From positions 6,180-70,179 of the forward strand of contig CAZFOO010000005.1 in the NCBI GenBank assembly GCA_964520585.1: a DNA stretch of 64,000 bases, given 5' to 3'. The translations under genes and the position numbers were made by a program. This DNA is from an uncultured Bacteroidales bacterium. GTDB taxonomy: Bacteria > Bacteroidota > Bacteroidia > Bacteroidales > PUMT01. Every line of letters begins with the position of its first letter. Within the stretch, counting starts at the first letter, position 1. Below are positions 1,451 through 11,378 of the stretch, one piece after another. A model generated the notes under the pieces. The model was given only the letters and a program-made list of their open reading frames with translations, had not been told where the DNA came from and did not search any database.

Positions 1451-1577
1451 CACCCATTTTGCTTGCTTTGCTTCACAAAAAGAGTGTTCAGCAATGCAGG
1501 ATCCGGTAAAAGGGGTAAAACTTTTTCCCGCCCAGTAATATAACCTGATAAATTCTGCTCTTCCCCTCTCCTCACCT
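1451..1577 (-). repeat. C-repeat copy C1
   Basis: The first 50 nt match copy C2 (3181-3230) at 49 of 50 positions, and the next ~75 nt match at ~75 percent. Similarity stops exactly at CACCCATTTT (plus strand). The end lies 64 nt upstream of the HigB-like start. Confidence 0.6.
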
Positions 1578-1699
1578 GCAAACCAGCACGACAAAGTATT
1601 GGAGTCAATCGGATTAGATCTCCTCCTGTAGAGCCTGTAAAGGGGTCTGATAGCCAACTCGGCTGAGAGGAATGCAGAATTTTATACCAAAGCTATATT

Positions 1700-2179
1700 A
1701 TGGTTATATTAAATGGAGACTTTATTGATTTGTCACACTTCGAAATAGTTTTTGATGGGACCTTTTTCTTCATTAATTCAAGACCCAATGATAAGATATC
1801 TTATATTAATAACCATTTGTATTTGCAATCGGAATTATACGAAGGTTATTTATATGAACTACAAGATATTGGGAAACATACAGAATTAATTGTACTTTTA
1901 TTGTATATTACTGAAATTACACTGAATCCAAATTTAAGGCAAGATTTTAATTCACGTTTGGCAACCAAATCTGCAGGTTGTTCTTTTTGGGATACTTATC
2001 ATGTCATTGCTTTTGGATTTAGTGAAAGTGAAGCAGAATATAATTTAGCTTCCGAAATTGATAAATATGAAGCTCCTGGTGGGGCAATGGAGTTTTGTCG
2101 CAAAATTGGGACAATGAATTCATCATGTGGAATCGGTGAACATTTGTGTGTTGCCTCACAAACTTATTGTTGTGATTAA
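1700..2179 (+). CDS. hypothetical protein, Cys-rich C-terminus
   Basis: 159-aa ORF with an ATG start and no recognisable motif. The C-terminus has six Cys (CRKIGTMNSSCGIGEHLCVASQTYCCD). It is followed 22 nt later by a small membrane ORF. Confidence 0.4.
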   Translation: MVILNGDFIDLSHFEIVFDGTFFFINSRPNDKISYINNHLYLQSELYEGYLYELQDIGKHTELIVLLLYITEITLNPNLRQDFNSRLATKSAGCSFWDTYHVIAFGFSESEAEYNLASEIDKYEAPGGAMEFCRKIGTMNSSCGIGEHLCVASQTYCCD

Positions 2180-2201
2180 ATATTAATTAAACTCTACGAT
2201 A

Positions 2202-2414
2202 ATGAATATTCAATTTATTTTGGGACCATTTGGAGTTATATTCATACTCCTGATTTATTTATCATTAACCCTTTCAGCCTTATTTATCATGTTTAAAAAG
2301 GAACAGTCTTATGAACTCTTTCTCTGGTTTTTAGTAATTGTATTTTTGCCATTTATTGGTTCACTACTGTATCTTTTTAAACATATAGTTAATTCGAAAA
2401 CAACACGTAATTAG
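2202..2414 (+). CDS. small two-TM membrane protein, PLDc_N-like
   Basis: 70 aa with two hydrophobic helices. The motif FLWFLVIVFLPFIGSLLYLF resembles the cardiolipin-synthase N-terminal (PLDc_N) domain. Confidence 0.5.
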   Translation: MNIQFILGPFGVIFILLIYLSLTLSALFIMFKKEQSYELFLWFLVIVFLPFIGSLLYLFKHIVNSKTTRN

Positions 2415-2430
2415 ATTAACTCATAAAAAC

Positions 2431-2468
2431 AAATATCCACCATTATGGATGATGGATATTTGTTTTTA
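2431..2468 (+). terminator. intrinsic terminator after 2202..2414
   Basis: Hairpin ATATCCA(C)CAT / ATG(A)TGGATAT followed by TTGTTTTTA. It has an A-rich 5' flank, so it could act in both directions. Confidence 0.5.
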
Positions 2469-2715
2469 TCCGAATCGATTCTTACAGAGAAAAGAGCTGG
2501 TTTTGAGCATAATGGGAAGGTGGAAGCAACAGGTGAAGTCGCTGACCCTGGTATTGTAAACCTTACTGAATATCACAAACGGGAAATTATAATTGCCTTC
2601 CGGTACAGGGGGGTGCTTCCCAAATTTCTGTCGCACTCCAGGATGACTGGAGACTGCAATATTATTTTTAAAAGTAGTGCTCCAACAGGTTCTCATCTAT
2701 TAAAAAACGAACCAT
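2466..2715 (-). pseudogene. DUF5615-like (PIN/Mut7-C-like) toxin candidate, frameshifted
   Basis: An ATG at 2715 gives MVRFLIDENLLEHYF then a stop. The +1 frame continues as KNNIAVSS...NTRVSDFTCCFHLPIMLKTSSFLCKNRFG. The two frames join if one base is removed in the T4/A5 run at 2665-2673. FLIDENL and T-x-x-S-D-F resemble DUF5615 motifs. It lies 35 nt downstream of a DUF433 gene. Confidence 0.35.
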
Positions 2716-2750
2716 TATGTTAAAAGCTTAATAGAAAAATTACTTTTCAT

Positions 2751-2948
2751 TTAATCAGCTGCAAATTTGATACAGGCATTAATATCACCAGGTTCAAGAG
2801 ACGGATATTGAGCAAGAATATCCTCGGCAGAATCTCCTGCTGACAGAAACTCGAGTAAAGTTTGAACTGTAATTATCGTGCCCCTGATTGTAGGGCGACC
2901 ATTACAAATATTGTCATCTATGGTAATACGTTCTGCAATATATTCCAT
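2751..2948 (-). CDS. DUF433 domain protein (antitoxin-like)
   Basis: The 65-aa protein has the DUF433 core DDNICNGRPTIRGTIITVQTLLEFLSAGDSAEDILAQYPSL. Confidence 0.8.
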   Translation of the reverse strand: MEYIAERITIDDNICNGRPTIRGTIITVQTLLEFLSAGDSAEDILAQYPSLEPGDINACIKFAAD

Positions 2949-3180
2949 TACACATTATTTTATTTTTGAAAGTAAACTGATTGAAATCTGCTGTGATCCT
3001 TTATAATTATAAAAATACAAATCTTTTTTTATTATCTTAACGAAATAAAAAACTTATTATTTATAAAGTTTATGCCATTGAGGATAAGCCTGGTGAATAT
3101 TTCCAAGTCCATAGATTTAGTGCTTCTCCTTACTCAGAATGCAGGATGGATATAAGGGAATGCCCTTAACACTTAGTTCA

Positions 3181-3305
3181 CACCCATTTTGCTTGCTTCG
3201 CTTCACAAAAAGAGTGTTCAGCAATGCAGGCTCCGTAATTTGAGTAAAACTTTTTCCGCATCCGTTAATATAACATGATAAATTCTGTTTTCCCCTCCCC
3301 TTCCC
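3181..3305 (-). repeat. C-repeat copy C2
   Basis: See C1. It has the same terminal sequence, CACCCATTTTGCTTGCTT(C/T)GCTTCACAAAAAGAGTGTTCAGCAATGCAGG. It lies ~230 nt upstream of the DUF433 start on the same strand. Confidence 0.6.
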
Positions 3306-4310: not shown

Positions 4311-5597
4311 ATGATTATGAAAAACCTGATATTCATTATCCTCCTCGCAGCAAGCACCAATCTTTTATACGCTCAAACAATTGAAAAGACAGTCGATGCA
4401 TTGGTTTCGCCAAAGATTGCAGAAAAAGAAATTACGGTTGGTGGAAACGATGCCGATGTTTGCGGTTTTACCAACCAGTCCATCCAGTATGCCATTGATG
4501 CTGTTGCCAAAACAGGCGGAACGGTGAAACTGAACCCTGGGCAATACGAAATTACCGCTCCTGTGCAAATGAGATCGAATGTAAAATTAGTGGGTTCCGG
4601 CAGGGAAACCATTTTGAAACGGGGGAAAGGTATTCAAACCCGGTTTGTGGTGGATGCCGATTATGCAGAATTGAAACTCACTGTGGAAAATTCCGACGGT
4701 TTCGAACCGGGCATGAAAATTCAGGTAACCGACCAGAACAACAGTTCCTGCTGGAATGTTTCCACGGCTTACATCACCGATATTCAGGATGATATGATTT
4801 ACATCGACAGCTACCTCATTCGCGATTACCGTTCCGATCGTGATGGGCTGGTTTCCAATGCGTCTTCAGTTATCGAAGTAATCGGGGCTGAAAATGTGCT
4901 CATTTCCAACCTTACTGCCGACGGCAACCGTGCTGAAAACTTTTTTGCCGACGGCTGCAACAGCGCGGGAATTCTTATGATAAAATCGAAAAAAGTTACG
5001 GTGGACAAGGTTCATGTCAAAGATTTTAATGGCGAAGGAATTAGTTGGCAAATCACTGAAAATGTAACCATTCAAAACAGCGAAATTTCAGGCAGTGGCA
5101 ATACAGGGATGCACCCAGGCACGGGATCGCCTTTCACTGTTATTGAAAACAATGATGTGCATCACAACGATAACGACGGTTTGTTCATTTGCTGGCGAGT
5201 TTATCAAAGTTCGGTTACCAACAACCGTTTTCACCATAACGGAAGGTTTGGCATTTGCACTGGTCATAAAGATTCTGATGTCATTTTTATCGGAAACCAT
5301 ATTTTCGAAAACGGCAGCGATGGTGTTCACCTGAGGGGCGAACGGGAATCGAATGCTCCACACCGCAACACGTTTGTGAAAAATGTAATTGAAAATAACG
5401 GCACGAAAAACGGAGGTTACGGTTTTTCTGTCAATTCGCCCGCCCGCGATTTGGTGCTGAAAGAGAATATTTTCAGGAGTACAGGCGAGAAAACACAAAA
5501 AGCGGCTGTTTACATTCAATCCAACGGACTTTCGCCTGAACTTATTAATAATCAGATGGAAGGACATCCGGAAGGAGATGTGGTTGAGGAAAAATGA
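4311..5597 (+). CDS. secreted right-handed parallel beta-helix repeat protein
   Basis: It has a signal peptide (MIMKNLIFIILLAASTNLLYAQ). Repeated PbH1-type units are visible: IENNDVHHNDNDGLFI, VTNNRFHHNGRFGICTG, FIGNHIFENGSDGVHL and VIENNGTKNGGYGF. Confidence 0.75.
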   Translation: MIMKNLIFIILLAASTNLLYAQTIEKTVDALVSPKIAEKEITVGGNDADVCGFTNQSIQYAIDAVAKTGGTVKLNPGQYEITAPVQMRSNVKLVGSGRETILKRGKGIQTRFVVDADYAELKLTVENSDGFEPGMKIQVTDQNNSSCWNVSTAYITDIQDDMIYIDSYLIRDYRSDRDGLVSNASSVIEVIGAENVLISNLTADGNRAENFFADGCNSAGILMIKSKKVTVDKVHVKDFNGEGISWQITENVTIQNSEISGSGNTGMHPGTGSPFTVIENNDVHHNDNDGLFICWRVYQSSVTNNRFHHNGRFGICTGHKDSDVIFIGNHIFENGSDGVHLRGERESNAPHRNTFVKNVIENNGTKNGGYGFSVNSPARDLVLKENIFRSTGEKTQKAAVYIQSNGLSPELINNQMEGHPEGDVVEEK

Positions 5598-5823
5598 ATT
5601 TAACTTAAAAATCCAAATTGAATTTTTTGAGCCGGTTTTAATTCCGGCAATAAGACAAAAGTTATTTTATAGTGGATCGACTCTTACAGAGAATAGAGCT
5701 TATTGTGAGCATAATGGAAAGATGGAAGTAACAGGTGAAATCATCTCCGGTAAGGAAGTCCTTGCGCTGCTCACGGAAGGTGTATTCAATACTGTCAGTT
5801 AGGAATAAAGTCACCACCGGGGT

Positions 5824-6143
5824 AACAAAAACAAAGCCGGGAACTTTTCCTGACGAAAAAATTCCCGGCTCACTCTTCGCGGCGAACCGCTTAAGTGTCA
5901 AGCTACTGTTATTATGACTGACCTCTGTTAACTGATCCCGGAGGATCTGTTCCGAAGGTCCTGACCTTGTTCCGATCAGCTTTTTACGGCTGATGTTCAC
6001 GCTGGTCACCGTTCCTGTTATGCGGCCTGAAGTTTTTCCCGGAGGAAATCCTTCGTTTGACCTGACCGAAATATTCAAACTCTGAGGCCTGGATCATTTC
6101 AGCTTAACATCTCAAAGAACAAGTCTTTTATCCCTCACTTGAT
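5824..6143 (-). ncRNA. candidate ~320-nt structured RNA of unknown class (R-RNA copy 1)
   Basis: The span is bounded by a promoter motif (6148-6180) and a terminator. The terminator is a 13-bp stem, GCCGGGAAUUUUU/AAAAGUUCCCGGC at 5836-5869, followed by UUUGUUUUUGUU. Internal hairpins include GCGG-UUCG-CCGC, AUCAGC-N8-GCUGAU, GAUCC-UCCG-GGAUC and UUUCC-UCCG-GGAAA. It is visibly more GC-rich than the flanking intergenic DNA. Confidence 0.4.
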
Positions 6144-6147
6144 GAAA

Positions 6148-6180
6148 CAAATATAGCACTGAAAACCTGTTTTCTGCAAG
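6148..6180 (-). promoter_or_regulatory. Bacteroidota-type promoter motif for R-RNA copy 1
   Basis: The minus strand reads cTTGcag-N-gtgcTATATTTGtttcAtc. This is TTG, a 21-nt spacer, then TAnnTTTG. Confidence 0.45.
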
Positions 6181-6388
6181 TTTTTTGAACCGTTTTTGTA
6201 AACAGGAAAATAACAACGGTTATCAACATTTTGTTAATTCATTTAAGCTTTTGTAAATTAATTAATTATGCGATAATTGTTGCCAGAACAGCATCTGTTA
6301 TCAACAAAAATAAATTTAAATATGCCGGGTTATCAACATCCAGTAAATACCAGACATTAAAAAACTACCCTGTGAAATAGTTGAATTT

Positions 6389-8695
6389 CTAATAGGTTAA
6401 CTTTATTTCAGTAATTATTATTCTTCCCGGAGCTATCATGTTCCTGGAGTCGGTGTATTCATGATCAAAAAGATTATGTGCTTTAAGAGACAAGGAATAT
6501 CCCCGGTAAATATTCTTCCACAGTTTCAGATCAATATATCTGAATGCCTCTGTTTTTTCGGAATTTACATCATTAATCCATTGAGAACCTTTATGGTTAA
6601 CAGAGATAAATGCATTCAGATACCTGTTCCTCCAGGCTATTGAAGTGAAAATCATATCTTTTGGCTGATAAGCAAGCTCATTACCTGTCAAATCATTATC
6701 CTTATCCTGATTTAGAACCCGGAATTCTGTTATTTCTGTATTTATATGACTATATGCCAGCGACAAGTCAAGTCCCCGGAAAATCTGGAGTTCCAGTCCA
6801 AGTTCTAAGCCAGTTACGGATACCCGGGCAATATTATCCATAATTCTAATGGGCCTTAAACGGTCGTTTAATACAATTGAATCGCCTGTGGAAATATAAC
6901 CGTGATAATCTGTTCCCCTTGAATGAAAGATATTGGGAGAAATAGTTATTCCCCCTCCAATGAATATATCTCCTCCAATCTCCACATTATCCAGATGTTC
7001 TGGTTTTAAATCCGGATTCCCCACCTTCATCCCACCCCTGATAAGGCCTGTCCGGCTCATATCGTCCAGTACCGGTGCCCTGAAACCACGGCTGTATCCC
7101 CCATAAATGCGATAAAGTCCTGTGTAGTGGTATTGCAATGATAATCGGGGACTAAATGCAGCAAATACCGCTTCTTCGATATCTTTTTCATAATCCTGCA
7201 GAAATCCAGTTTCCTTTGTTGGATCTTCAATGTTAAAAGCTCCATTGAAAAAACGGGCATAATCATATCTTATTCCTGTGAGTAAAACCCATCTTGTGCC
7301 AGATAATGAGAACTCATCCTGAATATAAAAGCCAAACAGGTTCATTTTTCCCTTATTGAAGACTTTATCGGAAGATGTTATATAAATATCAGCCCCGTCC
7401 ACAGAACCATTCCTAAGATCAATTCCCGTGGTGAGCATATGAGATTTGGAAGGTGAAAACGACCAGGAAGATAGGAATCCGGAATCATCACGCAGGGATT
7501 CGACATCGTATCTGGTTATCAGATTGCTTCTTAAACTTTCACTTATTTTCTGGTAATTTTCACTTTGCCCATGCACTGTTAAGTTCATGTGACTGTTGTT
7601 GGCAAAATATCCATTATAGGCAACACGGGTGTTAATATTGCTGTAATTGTTAAATGCTCCCTCTTGCGAAGCTAGTTCATTGTTTGGAAAACCATGTCCG
7701 AAAAAACGAGTGCCGGTACCTCTTTTGCCATTGTAAAAACTACCGGAGACCTCGATCAGCTGATCCTTTCCGATATAATATCCCGCTCTGCCGCCTAGCT
7801 GATATTCATTAAGGAATGAAGCAACTGAGTATTCATCTGTTTCATCTGCAGGAATGCTGAGATATCCGTCACTGTCACGATAAATACCGCTAAAGTTCCA
7901 GAAAATATCATTTTTCCGTCCACCTATACCTGCCCTGGTGTCGAATGTATTGAAACTGCCAATACCCTGACTTGCATATCCTTCCAGGGATTCTTGTGGT
8001 GCTGCTGTTCTGAGGTTAATGACTCCACCCATAGCATTACCACCGTGAATTGAAGATCCAGCACCTTTAACTACTTCTATTTGTTTAATCTGCTCATTAT
8101 CTATAGCATTCCAATTCACACTTCCACCATCTGATTTATTAACCGGCACCCCGTCAACCATAACCAAAGTGCGTCCTGCCTCGTTTCCCATGCCTCTGAG
8201 TGAAACATTCGCTGAGCCAAAGATTGAAGCTCCTCTGCTGACAAGAATTCCTGGAACTGATCTTAGCAGATCATCAGCAGACAAGGAAGGGAGGTTATCA
8301 ATTTTCTTCTCATTCAGGATATCGGTTCTTACTGGAACATTATATATGCCCCGCCGATTCCTTGTCGCAGTCACAATTATTTTTTCAAGAATTTCTGTCC
8401 GTGGTTGCAGGTGAATTATAACCGGGCTATCATTAGGTTTGCAGGCTAATTCGGCGGACCGGTATCCTATGTGGGTTATTAATATTACAACACTATCGTC
8501 ACTGCTAACTTCAATGTCAAATCTTCCTTTCTGATCGGTTGAGGTACCGGTTCCCGTTCCTTTGACCTGAACATTTGCGTAGGCCACTCCCACTGATGTC
8601 TGTTGATCAACAATATCACCGGAGATGAAGTGCTGAGCGGTTATTATGGTATTTCCACTAATGATTAATAAAATAGCAATGAGTGTTTTTTTCAT
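6389..8695 (-). CDS. TonB-dependent receptor with CarboxypepD_reg-like N-domain
   Basis: 768 aa with a signal peptide and a CarboxypepD_reg-like segment (ISGDIVDQQTSVGVAYANVQVKGT). Plug motifs are present (LLRSVPGILVSRG, SLRGMG, VDGVPVN). A long beta-barrel ends in an aromatic residue (KLTY). Confidence 0.9.
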   Translation of the reverse strand: MKKTLIAILLIISGNTIITAQHFISGDIVDQQTSVGVAYANVQVKGTGTGTSTDQKGRFDIEVSSDDSVVILITHIGYRSAELACKPNDSPVIIHLQPRTEILEKIIVTATRNRRGIYNVPVRTDILNEKKIDNLPSLSADDLLRSVPGILVSRGASIFGSANVSLRGMGNEAGRTLVMVDGVPVNKSDGGSVNWNAIDNEQIKQIEVVKGAGSSIHGGNAMGGVINLRTAAPQESLEGYASQGIGSFNTFDTRAGIGGRKNDIFWNFSGIYRDSDGYLSIPADETDEYSVASFLNEYQLGGRAGYYIGKDQLIEVSGSFYNGKRGTGTRFFGHGFPNNELASQEGAFNNYSNINTRVAYNGYFANNSHMNLTVHGQSENYQKISESLRSNLITRYDVESLRDDSGFLSSWSFSPSKSHMLTTGIDLRNGSVDGADIYITSSDKVFNKGKMNLFGFYIQDEFSLSGTRWVLLTGIRYDYARFFNGAFNIEDPTKETGFLQDYEKDIEEAVFAAFSPRLSLQYHYTGLYRIYGGYSRGFRAPVLDDMSRTGLIRGGMKVGNPDLKPEHLDNVEIGGDIFIGGGITISPNIFHSRGTDYHGYISTGDSIVLNDRLRPIRIMDNIARVSVTGLELGLELQIFRGLDLSLAYSHINTEITEFRVLNQDKDNDLTGNELAYQPKDMIFTSIAWRNRYLNAFISVNHKGSQWINDVNSEKTEAFRYIDLKLWKNIYRGYSLSLKAHNLFDHEYTDSRNMIAPGRIIITEIKLTY

Positions 8696-9079
8696 GTATA
8701 TAAAAAGTTAGTAGTTGTGATATTTTTTTAATGTCCCATGCAGTTATGCAAATAAATCATGTCGTCATAAAAAAAGCTTATTATCTTAATATGTTATTAA
8801 GTTCATTTTGCATTTCAGAAATTTCAGTTTCTATTGCAGGGTTCACTTTTACGTAAAATTTATCGAAAAAAGCAACCATATCTTCTCCTTTCTGTGTGGG
8901 TACGGTCTGCCCGTCTCTAGCTCCCCAACGAGATTTGTCTATTAACTTAAATCCAAATTAAAAAATTATGTGGTGAAGCAATAATCGGGTTAAAGCCAAA
9001 TGGCATTAATTATTGTGTTGGATGGTCTGTATTTTGCGAATTTTTTACTATAAGGAAAGAATAAAGTCACTGCCGGGGC

Positions 9080-9399
9080 AACAAAAACAAAGCCGGGAAC
9101 TTTTCCTGACGAAAAAATTCCCGGCTCACTCTTCGCGGCGAACCGCTTAAGTGTCAAGCTACTGTTATTATGACTGACCTCTGTTAACTGATCCCGGAGG
9201 ATCTGTTCCGAAGGTCCTGACCTTGTTCCGATCAGCTTTTTACGGCTGATGTTCACGCTGGTCACCGTTCCTGTTATGCGGCCTGAAGTTTTTCCCGGAG
9301 GAAATCCTTCGTTTGACCTGACCGAAATATTCAAACTCTGAGGCCTGGATCATTTCAGCTTAACATCTCAAAGAACAAGTCTTTTATCCCTCACTTGAT
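9080..9399 (-). ncRNA. candidate ~320-nt structured RNA of unknown class (R-RNA copy 2)
   Basis: Identical to copy 1. Its terminator hairpin (9092-9125) ends ~385 nt upstream of the receptor start codon on the same strand. Confidence 0.4.
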
Positions 9400-9403
9400 G
9401 AAA

Positions 9404-9436
9404 CAAATATAGCACTGAAAACCTGTTTTCTGCAAG
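9404..9436 (-). promoter_or_regulatory. Bacteroidota-type promoter motif for R-RNA copy 2
   Basis: Identical to 6148-6180. Confidence 0.45.
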
Positions 9437-9698
9437 TTTTTTGAACCGTTTTTGTAAACAGGAAAATAACAACGGTTATCAACATTTTGTTAATTCATTT
9501 AAGCTTTTGTAAATTAATTAATTATGCGATAATTGTTGCCAGAACAGCATCTGTTATCAACAAAAATATTTTTCCATAAGCCGTTTTATCAACACACAAG
9601 TAAACACTAGGCATAAAGAACTTAGTTTATTCTATTGATTTTATAAGATGATATAAAAGCACCGGTTTTGCAGCAGTAATCCGGAAATTGCTTTATAT

Positions 9699-9766
9699 CT
9701 TTGCATCAATGATGTCATAGTAGTAGGCACATAGCTTTGCATTATTGATGTCATAGTAGTGTGCGA
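9699..9766 (+). repeat. imperfect tandem duplication (2 x ~32 nt, period 36)
   Basis: The two units are CTTTGCATCAATGATGTCATAGTAGTAGGCAC and CTTTGCATTATTGATGTCATAGTAGTGTGCGA. The pair sits ~90 nt upstream of the fetA-like start. Confidence 0.7.
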
Positions 9767-9854
9767 AACTCCCGGATTATTCTTAAAAAATGCAACTATT
9801 CCTGCATTTTAATGGAAATACCTGTTTTGCGATAACCAATTGGCATTTTTCATC

Positions 9855-10448
9855 ATGATCAGCGGAAAAAACATATCACTTTCATTTAATAGTACCTTTA
9901 TTTTCCGGGATTTGACCTTTAGTATTCGCGGGGGAGAAAATGCCTGCTTTTCCGGTCCGTCGGGAAAAGGAAAATCATCCTTACTGAAAATAATACAGGG
10001 ATATATTATCCCGGATACAGGGCAGGTTGAAATAGATGGTATGGATCTCAATATTGAAAATGTCAGAAAAATCAGATCAAAGATGGCGTATATTCCTCAG
10101 AATATTAATCTACCTGTCGATAACGGAAAAGATCTGTTGAAATTAATTAATGACAGAAATGCTGAGAAAACGGTTGATTTTTTTATTGAGGAACTTGGAA
10201 TGCCTGCTGACATGCTTACACGCAGGTTTGATGAAATGAGCGGGGGACAGAAACAACGGGTTGTTATAGCTGTTTGCCTGTCTCTGGACCGGGAGATTAT
10301 TTTGTTGGACGAACCAACTTCTTCTCTGGATGACGAATCCATAGATAAAGTGATCAGGGTTATGCAAAATCTTAAAAACAGAACTATTGTATCTGCTTCC
10401 CACAATCATAAATGGATTCGGTTTGTTGATAAAAAAATAAATTTGTGA
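9855..10448 (+). CDS. fetA: ABC transporter ATP-binding protein, FetA/YbbL-like
   Basis: Walker A is GPSGKGKSSLLK, the ABC signature is MSGGQKQR, and Walker B is ILLDEPTSSLD. It is followed by a fetB-like permease. The ATG at 9855 is preferred over the TTG at 9840. Confidence 0.7.
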   Translation: MISGKNISLSFNSTFIFRDLTFSIRGGENACFSGPSGKGKSSLLKIIQGYIIPDTGQVEIDGMDLNIENVRKIRSKMAYIPQNINLPVDNGKDLLKLINDRNAEKTVDFFIEELGMPADMLTRRFDEMSGGQKQRVVIAVCLSLDREIILLDEPTSSLDDESIDKVIRVMQNLKNRTIVSASHNHKWIRFVDKKINL

Positions 10449-10589
10449 ATTTATATAATGCCGCTCTTTATGAAATATAATGGATATTTAATATAATACG
10501 GAGTGCTTCGGCATATTACTTTTTAATGTAATTGAATAAAACCAGGAACAAATAGTTTACCTGCCTCTAGTATTTATAAAATGAATTAG

Positions 10590-11378
10590 ATGATTGATAT
10601 CAGTATTTTTGATCTGGCACTCGGTTTTGCAATTCTTACGATACCGTTACTGGTTTTCATATATTACCGCATAAAGCTGGTAAAAGATATGTTTATTAGT
10701 TTGGCGAGAATGATCGCACAACTATCCCTTGTTGCTCTATATATGGAGTGGATATTCGATATGAACAATCCATGGATAAATTCTCTCTGGGTTTTTATTA
10801 TGATCCTGGTTGGCGCCAGCACCATTGTTTATCGTGTGAAACTTATATGGCATAATTTTCTTCTACCTGTTATTTTGGCAGGACTTTTGTCCATGATGAT
10901 TATTGATGGTTTTTTTTTGGGGACTGTCATAAGGCTTGATTATTTTTTTGATGCACGTTATTTTATTCCAATTTCAGGTATGGTGCTGGGCAATTCTATT
11001 AATCATAATATTGTTGGACTGACAACATATTTCGAAGGTCTATCGAAACGAAATGAACTTTACTATTTTATTTTAACAAATAACGGCAGCCGTAAGCAGG
11101 CAATACGGCCTTATATTCAGGATGCTATTGTAAAGGCACTCAATCCCTTATTAGCTAATATGTCTGTTATCGGACTCATTTCACTACCCGGTATGATGAC
11201 CGGGCAGATTTTGGGTGGTGCATCTCCTGCAATTGCAATTAAATATCAGGTAATGATAATGTTAGCTATTTTTGTGGGTTGCACTATGATTCTGGTTATC
11301 AGTATCTTATTTTCAAATTTCTTTGTTTTTGACGCTTATGATAATATCAGGCCATTGCAGAATAATTCATCTAGATGA
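10590..11378 (+). CDS. fetB: iron-export ABC permease FetB (UPF0014/YbbM family)
   Basis: Polytopic membrane protein. The blocks ISLPGMMTGQILGG and AIKYQVMIMLAIF closely match E. coli FetB (VSLPGMMSG, AIKYQIMV). Confidence 0.85.
   Translation: MIDISIFDLALGFAILTIPLLVFIYYRIKLVKDMFISLARMIAQLSLVALYMEWIFDMNNPWINSLWVFIMILVGASTIVYRVKLIWHNFLLPVILAGLLSMMIIDGFFLGTVIRLDYFFDARYFIPISGMVLGNSINHNIVGLTTYFEGLSKRNELYYFILTNNGSRKQAIRPYIQDAIVKALNPLLANMSVIGLISLPGMMTGQILGGASPAIAIKYQVMIMLAIFVGCTMILVISILFSNFFVFDAYDNIRPLQNNSSR

What the first reader, a model, noticed from the sequence alone, without database searches (positions are those of the whole stretch)
5803..9568. Identical ~500-bp direct repeats bracket a TonB-dependent receptor gene (R-U-R architecture)
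Two segments, 5803-6312 and 9059-9568, align at a fixed offset of 3256 bp. I read three mismatches in the first ~20 nt and none over the remaining ~490 nt. Weaker similarity continues beyond both ends: TTAACTTAAA..TCCAAATT near 5605 and 8944, and ..GCCG..TTATCAACA.. near 6325 and 9580. The duplication is therefore older than the perfect core implies, and the core is being kept identical by gene conversion or selection. The unique 2.7-kb segment between the repeats is essentially one receptor gene plus its 5' region. Homologous recombination between the repeats would excise or amplify the receptor. This is not a standard IS-flanked composite, because the repeats encode no transposase.
Basis: seen in the sequence. 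Interest (0 to 1): 0.7.

Follow-up and report, generated by a model that had tools for sequence, protein, structure and literature searches.

The report
Duplicated uncatalogued structured RNA gene flanking receptor
The two identical ~500-bp repeats around the TonB-dependent receptor gene are two copies of a complete gene (regulatory boxes, promoter, about 318-nt folded RNA, terminator) for a conserved non-coding RNA that matches no Rfam 15 family and is found only in a few Bacteroidota from what appear to be alkaline-lake metagenomes.

Summary
Windows 5790-6366 and 9046-9622 are direct repeats at offset 3256, with a 489-bp perfect tract (5824-6312 = 9080-9568) and edges that decay to about 75% identity. 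A closely related but distinct MAG contig carries the same arrangement.

The repeat is not an IS end, a protein gene or a leader of the receptor. On the minus strand, each copy holds:
- three position-conserved TGTTGATAAC boxes;
- a Bacteroidetes-type promoter (TTG ... TATATTTG);
- a predicted RNA of about 318 nt;
- a strong intrinsic terminator.

I recovered ten further distinct homologues (81-91% identical). Conservation starts at the -7 box and ends at the terminator U-run. The consensus fold has 11 base pairs with compensatory changes, a count reached by 0 of 500 shuffles. There is no codon periodicity, and in-frame stops break the apparent ORF. No Rfam family, tRNA or tmRNA matches.

The sharp switch from 100% to about 75% identity inside a longer homologous stretch fits gene conversion between older paralogues. 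A second genome (L093) has an independent RNA-gene-RNA arrangement around a PL14 lyase gene.

The RNA's function is unknown. No deletion or amplification of the receptor was seen.

The parts
5790..6366 (-). Repeat unit copy A (578 bp). It is a complete ncRNA gene with its upstream regulatory region. It begins about 22 nt after the receptor stop codon.
9046..9622 (-). Repeat unit copy B (96% identical to copy A overall). It lies between the divergent fetA-like gene and the receptor's 5' region.
5824..6312 (.). Perfectly identical tract of copy A (489 bp), equal to 9080-9568 in copy B. This is the inferred gene-conversion tract. It covers the RNA, the promoter and boxes 2 and 3, but not box 1.
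   Evidence: mismatch map
9080..9568 (.). Perfectly identical tract of copy B.
5826..6143 (-). Predicted ncRNA A, about 318 nt. The start is inferred 5 nt after the G of the -7 box. The 3' end lies in the U-run after the terminator.
   Evidence: position of the -7 box relative to the start site from PMC9723704
9082..9399 (-). Predicted ncRNA B, identical in sequence to RNA A.
6148..6155 (-). -7 promoter box TATATTTG of copy A (Bacteroidetes sigma-A consensus TAnnTTTG). A TTG lies at 6177-6179, 21 nt upstream. All specified positions of the consensus are invariant in 11 homologues.
9404..9411 (-). -7 promoter box TATATTTG of copy B.
5834..5871 (-). Intrinsic terminator hairpin of copy A (17 pairs, 7 G-C) followed by TGTTTTTGTT.
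   Evidence: (I1)
9090..9127 (-). Intrinsic terminator hairpin of copy B.
6219..6228 (-). Box 3 (proximal) TGTTGATAAC of copy A, at about -84 from the inferred start.
6297..6306 (-). Box 2 TGTTGATAAC of copy A.
6329..6338 (-). Box 1 (distal) TGTTGATAAC of copy A. It lies outside the perfect tract.
9475..9484 (-). Box 3 of copy B.
9553..9562 (-). Box 2 of copy B.
9585..9594 (-). Box 1 of copy B, degenerate (TGTTGATAAA).
6389..8695 (-). TonB-dependent receptor gene (768 aa; CarboxypepD_reg, Plug, beta-barrel). Its best NCBIfam similarity is to the heme/hemoglobin receptor subfamily, below that family's cut-off.
8696..8954 (-). The receptor's own 5' region. It is conserved together with the gene in L083, where no RNA gene is nearby.

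Best explanation
Each repeat is a full copy of a gene for a structured non-coding RNA of about 318 nt, transcribed on the minus strand. The family matches nothing in Rfam 15.

Each unit contains three TGTTGATAAC boxes at fixed positions. I infer these are sites for a dedicated DNA-binding regulator. They are followed by a canonical Bacteroidetes sigma-A promoter, a multi-helix RNA whose 5' and 3' parts pair to close a junction, and a strong intrinsic terminator.

The two copies are paralogues from an older local duplication of at least 578 bp. A 489-bp tract, running from box 2 to just past the terminator hairpin, has since been homogenised. The most likely cause is RecA-type gene conversion or unequal exchange between the direct repeats.

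The receptor gene between them is an independent unit with its own 5' region. It is not regulated in cis by the RNA as a leader. Its transcript has no terminator of its own, so it probably ends at the terminator of RNA copy A.

Shown here:
- the repeat and its boundaries;
- conservation limited to the transcription unit;
- covariation in the fold;
- absence of a coding signal;
- conserved box positions;
- a second strain with the same layout;
- a second, independent RNA-gene-RNA case.

Inferred: expression of the RNA, its start site, the regulator, gene conversion as the homogenising process, and the RNA's function, which remains unknown.
For: Repeat and boundaries.

Promoter and terminator. 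The -7 consensus and its position come from PMC9723704.

Single-sequence fold: -115 kcal/mol, z=-4.7 against shuffles.

Homologues: I found them by translating the spurious ORF and by a 22-mer scan of metagenomes. This gave 10 further distinct homologues in L087, L088, L090-L096.

Extent of conservation: it begins at TATATTTG and stops at the U-run.

Structure:
- 97.5% of cells form standard pairs.
- 11 pairs show compensatory double changes, against 3.9 +/- 1.6 in shuffles (0 of 500 reach 11).
- Slid controls give 0-3 such pairs.
- Six helices carry covariation.

Not coding:
- Variable columns at codon positions 1/2/3 number 39/31/29, p=0.43.
- In-frame stops occur in L091, L092, L093a, L093b and L095.

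Not a leader: the downstream neighbour is convergent in L088, L091, L092, L093a and L096. The receptor's 5' region travels with the receptor in L083, without the RNA.

Boxes: they sit at -172/-140/-62 relative to alignment column 1 in most homologues. There are 5 exact matches in the window, all inside the units, against 0.21 expected.

Same layout in a second strain.

Independent duplication: L093a and L093b are sister sequences, 90% identical, with a PL14 lyase gene between them.

Gene conversion: identity drops abruptly from 100% to about 75% at both ends of the tract. The tract includes 169 nt upstream of the transcript that appear much less conserved between species in the alignments.
Against: - There is no expression data, so the transcript ends and the RNA itself are predictions.
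- Only 11 distinct sequences at 81-96% identity are available, so many helices never vary and the covariation rests on few events.
- The covariation shuffle control does not correct for relatedness between sequences.
- Gene conversion is inferred from a single pair of copies.
- A recent re-duplication whose end points happened to fall within older homology would look the same.
- The receptor's upstream region has no exact TAnnTTTG box, so read-through from RNA copy B into the receptor cannot be excluded.
- The function of the RNA and of the boxes is unknown.
Confidence: 0.72

Rival explanations
1. The arrangement comes from a recent segmental duplication or recombination event rather than from ongoing gene conversion. 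On this reading the perfect tract is simply young, and the edge similarity reflects an earlier, separate duplication or shared regulatory constraint.
For: The perfect 489-bp tract has the same boundaries in both strains. That fits a single past event as well as it fits repeated conversion. A neighbouring 1.73-kb cassette flanked by about 120-nt repeats differs in copy number between the same two strains. This shows that repeat-mediated recombination is active in this region.
Against: A single unequal exchange or conversion event is mechanistically the same process as gene conversion. The edges are clearly homologous: 76-86% identical, with the same box at the same position. An older duplication is therefore needed in either case.
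Confidence: 0.15
2. RNA copy B is a cis-acting 5' leader of the receptor mRNA, of the riboswitch or attenuator type, and copy A is a leftover duplicate.
For: Copy B is upstream of the receptor on the same strand and ends in a terminator. No exact -7 box lies between it and the start codon.
Against: - In five homologous loci the gene downstream of the RNA is convergent.
- The receptor ortholog in L083 keeps about 260 nt of the same 5' region without any RNA gene.
- Receptor orthologs at 75% identity have no unit nearby.
- Copy A has no gene downstream on its strand.
- The terminator is invariant and strong, and I found no alternative anti-terminator pairing.
Confidence: 0.05
3. The repeats are ends or long terminal repeats of a mobile element, or duplicated attachment sites of an integrative element that carries the receptor as cargo.
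For: The architecture is direct repeats flanking a single cargo gene. A second RNA-cargo-RNA case exists in L093. An integrase fragment lies directly upstream of the RNA gene in L096. A dynamic cassette array lies 2.5 kb away.
Against: - There is no transposase or integrase in or next to the unit in the window.
- There are no terminal inverted repeats.
- There is no match in plasmid or phage collections or in viral contigs.
- In L088, L091 and L092 (and, for cca only, L096) the unit is single-copy at a syntenic chromosomal site between an Exo_endo_phos gene and a cca-like gene.
- The repeat spans an entire functional gene, not an att core.
Confidence: 0.05
4. Assembly artefact: only one real copy exists, or two strains were joined into a chimera.
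For: The window and its relatives come from metagenome assemblies. A Logan assembly contig of the same organism breaks near this region, at about window position 9949.
Against: A distinct MAG contig has the same R-U-R. It differs from the window by scattered substitutions and in the copy number of a neighbouring cassette. Each copy has its own diverged left and right edges joined to unique flanks, which a single copy cannot produce.
Confidence: 0.03
5. The unit encodes a small protein, the 114-138-aa ORF that was called on the MAG record.
For: An ORF of 138 or 114 aa overlaps the unit. Gene callers predicted it in nine assemblies.
Against: - Start codons differ between the assemblies.
- The ORF runs through the terminator hairpin.
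- There is no third-position excess of variation.
- In-frame stops occur in five homologues.
- There is no Pfam hit.
Confidence: 0.02

Closest known systems
Paralogous bacterial sRNA gene pairs (PrrF1/PrrF2 of Pseudomonas aeruginosa, OmrA/OmrB of E. coli, the Qrr sRNAs of Vibrio) - from my own knowledge
   Same: These are locally duplicated, independently transcribed RNA genes. Each copy has its own promoter, regulator-binding sites and terminator. The duplicates are kept near each other and stay similar.
   Different: The RNA here is much larger (about 318 nt) with a multi-helix junction fold. A 2.7-kb protein-coding unit lies between the copies. The copies are 100% identical over 489 bp, including the promoter. 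There is no sequence or Rfam relationship to those sRNAs, and the regulator and targets are unknown.
Concerted evolution of duplicated genes by gene conversion (tufA/tufB in Salmonella, rRNA operons) - from my own knowledge
   Same: There is a perfectly homogenised tract with sharp boundaries inside paralogues whose edges have diverged. Direct repeats of this length are substrates for RecA-dependent exchange.
   Different: Here the process is inferred from one pair of copies in two near-identical strains. No donor-recipient polymorphism was observed.
Orphan large structured ncRNAs (OLE, GOLLD, ROOL, raiA, HEARO; the 'smtA motif / Soda Lake RNA' of Thioalkalivibrio, PMC11109978)
   Same: It is a stand-alone RNA of more than 300 nt with a complex, covariation-supported fold, many invariant nucleotides, a narrow phylogenetic range and no assigned function. 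The smtA motif also comes from soda-lake bacteria.
   Different: No Rfam 15 model matches, even at E up to 10. The hosts are Bacteroidota, not Gammaproteobacteria or Firmicutes. It seems unlikely given the different phylum.
Composite transposons and IS-flanked amplifiable units
   Same: Direct repeats of several hundred bp bracket a cargo gene, so homologous recombination could delete or amplify it.
   Different: The repeats here have no transposase, no inverted ends and no dispersed copies. They are conserved chromosomal RNA genes.

Membership tests
Any Rfam 15 RNA family | Covariance-model score at or above the family's gathering threshold | tested here: not met
   There are no hits at gathering thresholds in the whole window. 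At E up to 10, the only overlapping hits are chance-level miRNA, YrlB and RalA matches. None recurs in the homologues.
tRNA / tmRNA | ARAGORN detection | tested here: not met
   ARAGORN found 0 genes in the window.
Independent (trans-encoded) structured ncRNA gene | Own promoter and own terminator that delimit the conserved block | tested here: met
   All specified positions of the -7 consensus TAnnTTTG are invariant in 11 homologues. A 17-bp terminator plus U-run follows. Conservation stops outside these limits.
Independent (trans-encoded) structured ncRNA gene | Secondary structure supported by compensatory substitutions | tested here: met
   11 pairs show double changes. None of 500 shuffles reaches that number, and slid controls give 0-3.
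Independent (trans-encoded) structured ncRNA gene | Detected transcript of the predicted size | not testable with these tools
   No transcriptome data were available.
Riboswitch / cis-regulatory leader | Consistently located upstream of, and co-oriented with, a regulated gene | tested here: not met
   The downstream gene is convergent in L088, L091, L092, L093a and L096. The receptor ortholog in L083 lacks the unit.
IS element / composite transposon | Transposase gene and terminal inverted repeats | tested here: not met
   The unit's ORFs have no Pfam family. The only inverted repeat is the terminator hairpin. BLAST against plasmids and phages finds nothing.
Integrative element with duplicated att site | Site-specific recombinase within the repeat-flanked segment, and short att core repeats | tested here: not met
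   The flanked segment holds only the receptor gene and its 5' region. The repeats are 578 bp and cover a whole gene.
Protein-coding gene | Conserved open frame with excess variation at third codon positions | tested here: not met
   Variable columns number 39/31/29 at positions 1/2/3. In-frame stops occur in five homologues.
Paralogues under gene conversion (concerted evolution) | Identical tract with sharp borders inside an older, diverged homologous region | tested here: met
   There are 0 mismatches in 489 bp, then about 75-85% identity over 34 and 54 bp at the two edges.
Paralogues under gene conversion (concerted evolution) | Within-genome copies more alike than orthologues, in several lineages or with variable tract ends | tested here: inconclusive
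   The window copies are identical in the RNA region. The L093 copies are sisters but 10% diverged. Only two near-identical strains of the window lineage are available.
smtA motif ('Soda Lake RNA') | Sequence or structure match to the published consensus | not testable with these tools
   The figure and alignment are not held.

The most novel reading that the evidence does not exclude
The RNA of about 318 nt is a new class of complex-folded bacterial ncRNA with a dedicated regulator that binds the three TGTTGATAAC boxes. Its gene acts repeatedly as a landing pad or homology anchor for capturing accessory genes. This would generate RNA-cargo-RNA modules: the TonB receptor here, a PL14 lyase in L093, extra genes next to the RNA in L091 and L092, and an integrase next to it in L096. 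These modules could then be deleted, amplified or exchanged by recombination between the RNA copies.
Probability: 0.12. Interest if true: 0.75.

Novelty: new variant of a known kind. Interest (0 to 1): 0.5.

Why it matters
Complex-folded bacterial RNAs longer than 300 nt are few (PMC11109978 calls them rare), and several known examples have unusual functions. This one has clear gene boundaries, covariation-supported helices, long invariant single-stranded segments and a conserved three-box upstream architecture. Together these give direct experimental handles: Northern blot, pull-down and DNA-affinity capture of the regulator.

For genome annotation, a 'hypothetical protein' called in at least nine assemblies is a mis-called RNA gene.

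For genome dynamics, the locus is a clean example of a homogenised tract between RNA-gene paralogues. The 489-bp perfect direct repeats could mediate loss or amplification of an outer-membrane receptor.

Tried and rejected
- Rfam at gathering and at E up to 10, on the window and on six homologous loci: nothing relevant.
- ARAGORN: nothing.
- BLAST of the unit against plasmid and phage records, and two exact-pattern scans of viral contigs: no match.
- Synteny anchored on FetB across one genome per species. The closest relatives are only 62-64% identical, and none of the 80 loci holds the RNA. This spent the single genome-contig scan.
- Exact-protein look-ups for the receptor and the beta-helix protein: not on record.
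- Receptor orthologs at 75% identity: no unit nearby.
- Profile searches with the pseudo-ORF alignment, against the 5.8-billion-protein collection and against 1.84 billion representatives. They gave no further members, so the family looks rare.
- RNA-RNA duplex prediction between the RNA and 54 translation-start regions in the window. It was uninformative, and the receptor scored below average.
- Orthology between the window receptor and the TonB receptor near the RNA in L088: rejected at 24% identity.
- attC-like hairpin folding of the neighbouring 125-nt cassette repeats: rejected, z about 0.
- DnaA-box reading of TGTTGATAA (one mismatch to TGTGNAWAA, from my own knowledge). I considered it, but there is no GC-skew switch or other origin feature. 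I left it as a low-probability idea.


Full report
**1. The observation**

The window holds two direct copies at a fixed offset of 3256 bp. A base-by-base comparison shows 5824-6312 identical to 9080-9568: 489 bp with no mismatch. The first differences on the left are at 5823, 5816 and 5815, and similarity fades by about 5790. On the right, 6313-6366 is about 75% identical to 9569-9622 with one indel. BLAST reports the whole homologous stretch as 5790-6366 vs 9046-9622, 578 bp at 96%.

There is no third copy in the 64-kb window. Beyond 6366/9622 there is none.

**2. Are both copies real?**

A closely related but distinct MAG contig, L082 (GCA_048614755.1), has a receptor protein 99% identical to the window's and is 99.5% identical in DNA over 9.4 kb. 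It carries the same two copies with the same boundaries. The two assemblies differ by scattered substitutions (8 in the receptor gene, 1 at the edge of copy B) and by the copy number of a neighbouring cassette, so they are not the same sequence. Each copy also has its own diverged edges joined to unique flanks. A collapsed single copy could not produce that.

**3. Anatomy on the minus strand**

Read on the minus strand, each unit contains, in order:
- three TGTTGATAAC boxes (6338-6329, 6306-6297, 6228-6219);
- a TTG at 6179-6177 and, 21 nt further on, TATATTTG at 6155-6148;
- about 318 nt of G+C-richer sequence;
- a 17-bp hairpin (5871-5834) followed by TGTTTTTGTT.

TAnnTTTG is the sigma-A -7 box of Bacteroidetes and occupies -12 to -5 (PMC9723704). 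That places the start near 6143. The single sequence folds at -115 kcal/mol, z=-4.7 against shuffles. The neighbours are:
- the TonB-dependent receptor, 6389-8695 (-), between the copies;
- a divergent FetA/FetB-like exporter pair, 9840-11378 (+);
- a convergent beta-helix protein, 4311-5597 (+).

**4. Finding relatives**

Rfam, ARAGORN and the plasmid and phage collections gave nothing. A synteny search anchored on FetB showed that the closest species-level genomes are only 62-64% identical in that protein (Bacteroidales and Marinilabiliales-like MAGs) and lack the unit.

What worked was treating the spurious ORF that overlaps the unit as a protein query. Gene callers had predicted it in eight other assemblies. 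Six of those contigs, plus three from an exact 22-mer scan of metagenome contigs, gave ten further distinct homologues that are 81-91% identical in the RNA region. The sample names (SL_3KL_010_SED, ML7) suggest soda-lake or alkaline-lake metagenomes. That is my reading of the names, not a tested fact. Profile searches with the pseudo-ORF alignment found no more members, and viral contigs hold none. The family therefore looks rare and narrowly distributed.

**5. It is an RNA gene**

In the alignment, conservation begins exactly at the -7 box and ends at the terminator U-run. Outside these limits the sequences are unrelated or only patchily similar.

The consensus fold has a closing helix between the 5' end (UCAAGU) and GCUUGA near position 245. 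It also has a long helix with an internal multi-branch, several hairpins capped by UUCG or UCCG, and two 3' hairpins, the last being the terminator. On 105 pairs:
- 97.5% of cells are standard pairs;
- 11 pairs carry compensatory double changes, against 3.9 +/- 1.6 in column shuffles (0 of 500 reach 11);
- structures slid by 1-3 columns give 0-3 such pairs.

Covariation falls in six helices. Several long segments are invariant, for example CAUCAAGUGAG.GAUAAAAGACUUGUUCUUUGAGAUGUUAAGC and GUCAGUCAUAAUAAC.GUAGCUUGACAC.

The overlapping ORF is not a gene. Its predicted starts differ between assemblies, and it runs through the terminator. Variable columns are spread 39/31/29 over codon positions 1/2/3, p=0.43. 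The frame also carries stop codons in L091, L092, L093a, L093b and L095.

**6. It is not a leader of the receptor**

In L088, L091, L092, L093a and L096 the gene downstream of the RNA is convergent. L088, L091 and L092 share the arrangement Exo_endo_phos gene -> RNA -> <- cca-like nucleotidyltransferase. L096 shows the cca part. This is probably the ancestral site.

The receptor orthologs at 75% identity have no unit nearby. In L083 the receptor is accompanied by about 260 nt of the same 5' region as in the window (8954-8696). The unique segment is therefore a self-contained receptor unit. The TonB receptor near the RNA in L088 is unrelated (24% identity) and sits behind a TPP riboswitch in the syntenic L092.

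One caveat: no exact -7 box lies between RNA copy B and the receptor start. Read-through from copy B is not excluded.

**7. Upstream boxes**

The three TGTTGATAAC-like boxes occupy the same positions, -172/-140/-62 from alignment column 1, which is about -195/-162/-84 from the start. This holds in the window copies and in L090, L094, L095, L087, L091 and partly L093a. In the window the exact decamer occurs five times, all within the two units, against 0.21 expected. I infer that a dedicated DNA-binding regulator uses these sites. Its identity is unknown.

**8. History of the repeat**

Box 1 and the sequence around it, and the 30 nt after the terminator, are homologous between the two copies but diverged (76-86% identical). 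Everything from just upstream of box 2 to just past the terminator hairpin is identical. That includes 169 nt upstream of the transcript, a region that looks much less conserved between species in the alignments. Selection on the RNA cannot explain identity there. A sharp-edged homogenised tract inside older paralogues is what gene conversion or unequal exchange produces.

The edges of copies A and B resemble each other more than they resemble L090 or L094. The duplication therefore post-dates the split from those lineages.

In L093 two copies (sisters, 90% identical in the RNA) flank a PL14 polysaccharide-lyase gene on the opposite strand. This is an independent RNA-gene-RNA arrangement that has not been homogenised. 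In L091 and L092 an extra gene sits between the RNA and cca. In L096 an integrase fragment replaces the box region. The RNA locus thus seems prone to rearrangement, but two cases are too few to claim a mechanism.

**9. Consequences**

A perfect direct repeat of 489 bp is ample for RecA-dependent deletion or amplification of the receptor. That remains a prediction, because both strains have exactly one receptor unit.

Only 2.5 kb away, a 1.73-kb cassette bounded by about 120-nt repeats is present once in the window and twice in L082. Repeat-mediated copy-number change does therefore occur in this neighbourhood.

The receptor gene has no terminator of its own before RNA copy A. Its mRNA probably ends at that terminator (inference).

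**10. Comparison with known systems**

The closest analogues in behaviour are:
- adjacent sRNA paralogues (PrrF1/2, OmrA/B, Qrr), from my own knowledge;
- concerted evolution of duplicated genes (tufA/B, rrn), from my own knowledge.

The closest in kind are orphan large structured RNAs such as OLE, GOLLD, ROOL and raiA, and the >350-nt 'smtA motif / Soda Lake RNA' of Thioalkalivibrio (PMC11109978). No Rfam model matches.

**11. Verdict**

It is a duplicated gene for a conserved structured ncRNA that matches no Rfam 15 family and has an unknown function. I rate it a new variant of a known kind, with interest 0.5.

Noticed in passing
window 1451-1572 and 3178-3305; L082 7516-7642, 9248-9372, 10977-11112, 12755-12893; L083 3207-3336, 5341-5466, 7134-7267, 8117-8240: A conserved direct repeat of about 125 nt separates small gene cassettes (Gp49/HigB-like + HTH, DUF433 + DUF5615, PLDc_N + a 159-aa protein). 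Whole cassettes are 95-98% identical between the window/L082 lineage and L083, although the receptor genes of these genomes are only 75% identical. The repeat does not fold as a hairpin (DNA fold z about 0), so it is not attC-like. It looks like a cassette array with an unknown exchange mechanism.
   Followed up: partly
window 1451-3296 vs L082: The 1.73-kb cassette (159-aa, PLDc_N, 66-aa, DUF433 genes) is present once in the window and twice in tandem in the 99.5%-identical strain L082. This is a copy-number difference produced between the flanking repeats of about 120 nt.
   Followed up: partly
window 2474-2540 and 5676-5742: A 67-nt stretch just downstream of RNA copy A is 87% identical to part of a small ORF inside the cassette array. 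It may be a cassette remnant next to the RNA gene.
   Followed up: partly
window 9695-9724 and 9731-9760: Two 30-nt direct repeats lie 36 nt apart upstream of the fetA-like gene. Each contains a TAnnTTTG motif on the plus strand. They may be tandem promoters or operator sites.
   Followed up: no
L083 vs window: L083 9726-12279 = window 8954-6417; L083 12465-13272 = window 593-18: The receptor unit sits at a different position relative to the cassette array in L083 than in the window. The receptor or the array has therefore moved between these lineages.
   Followed up: partly
L096 1-734: A tyrosine-recombinase (Phage_integrase) C-terminal fragment and a 106-aa ORF lie directly upstream of the RNA gene. 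They replace the TGTTGATAAC box region, while the core promoter is kept.
   Followed up: no
L092 630-726 (-): A TPP riboswitch (63.8 bits, above the gathering score) lies near the TonB-dependent receptor gene that is about 2 kb from the RNA in the syntenic L088 locus.
   Followed up: no
window 8990-9334 (-) and 5662-6078 (-); L082 1487-1831: The 'hypothetical protein' called on public records (P0121-P0129) is a translation of the ncRNA gene, including its terminator. It is an annotation error that recurs in nine assemblies.
   Followed up: yes
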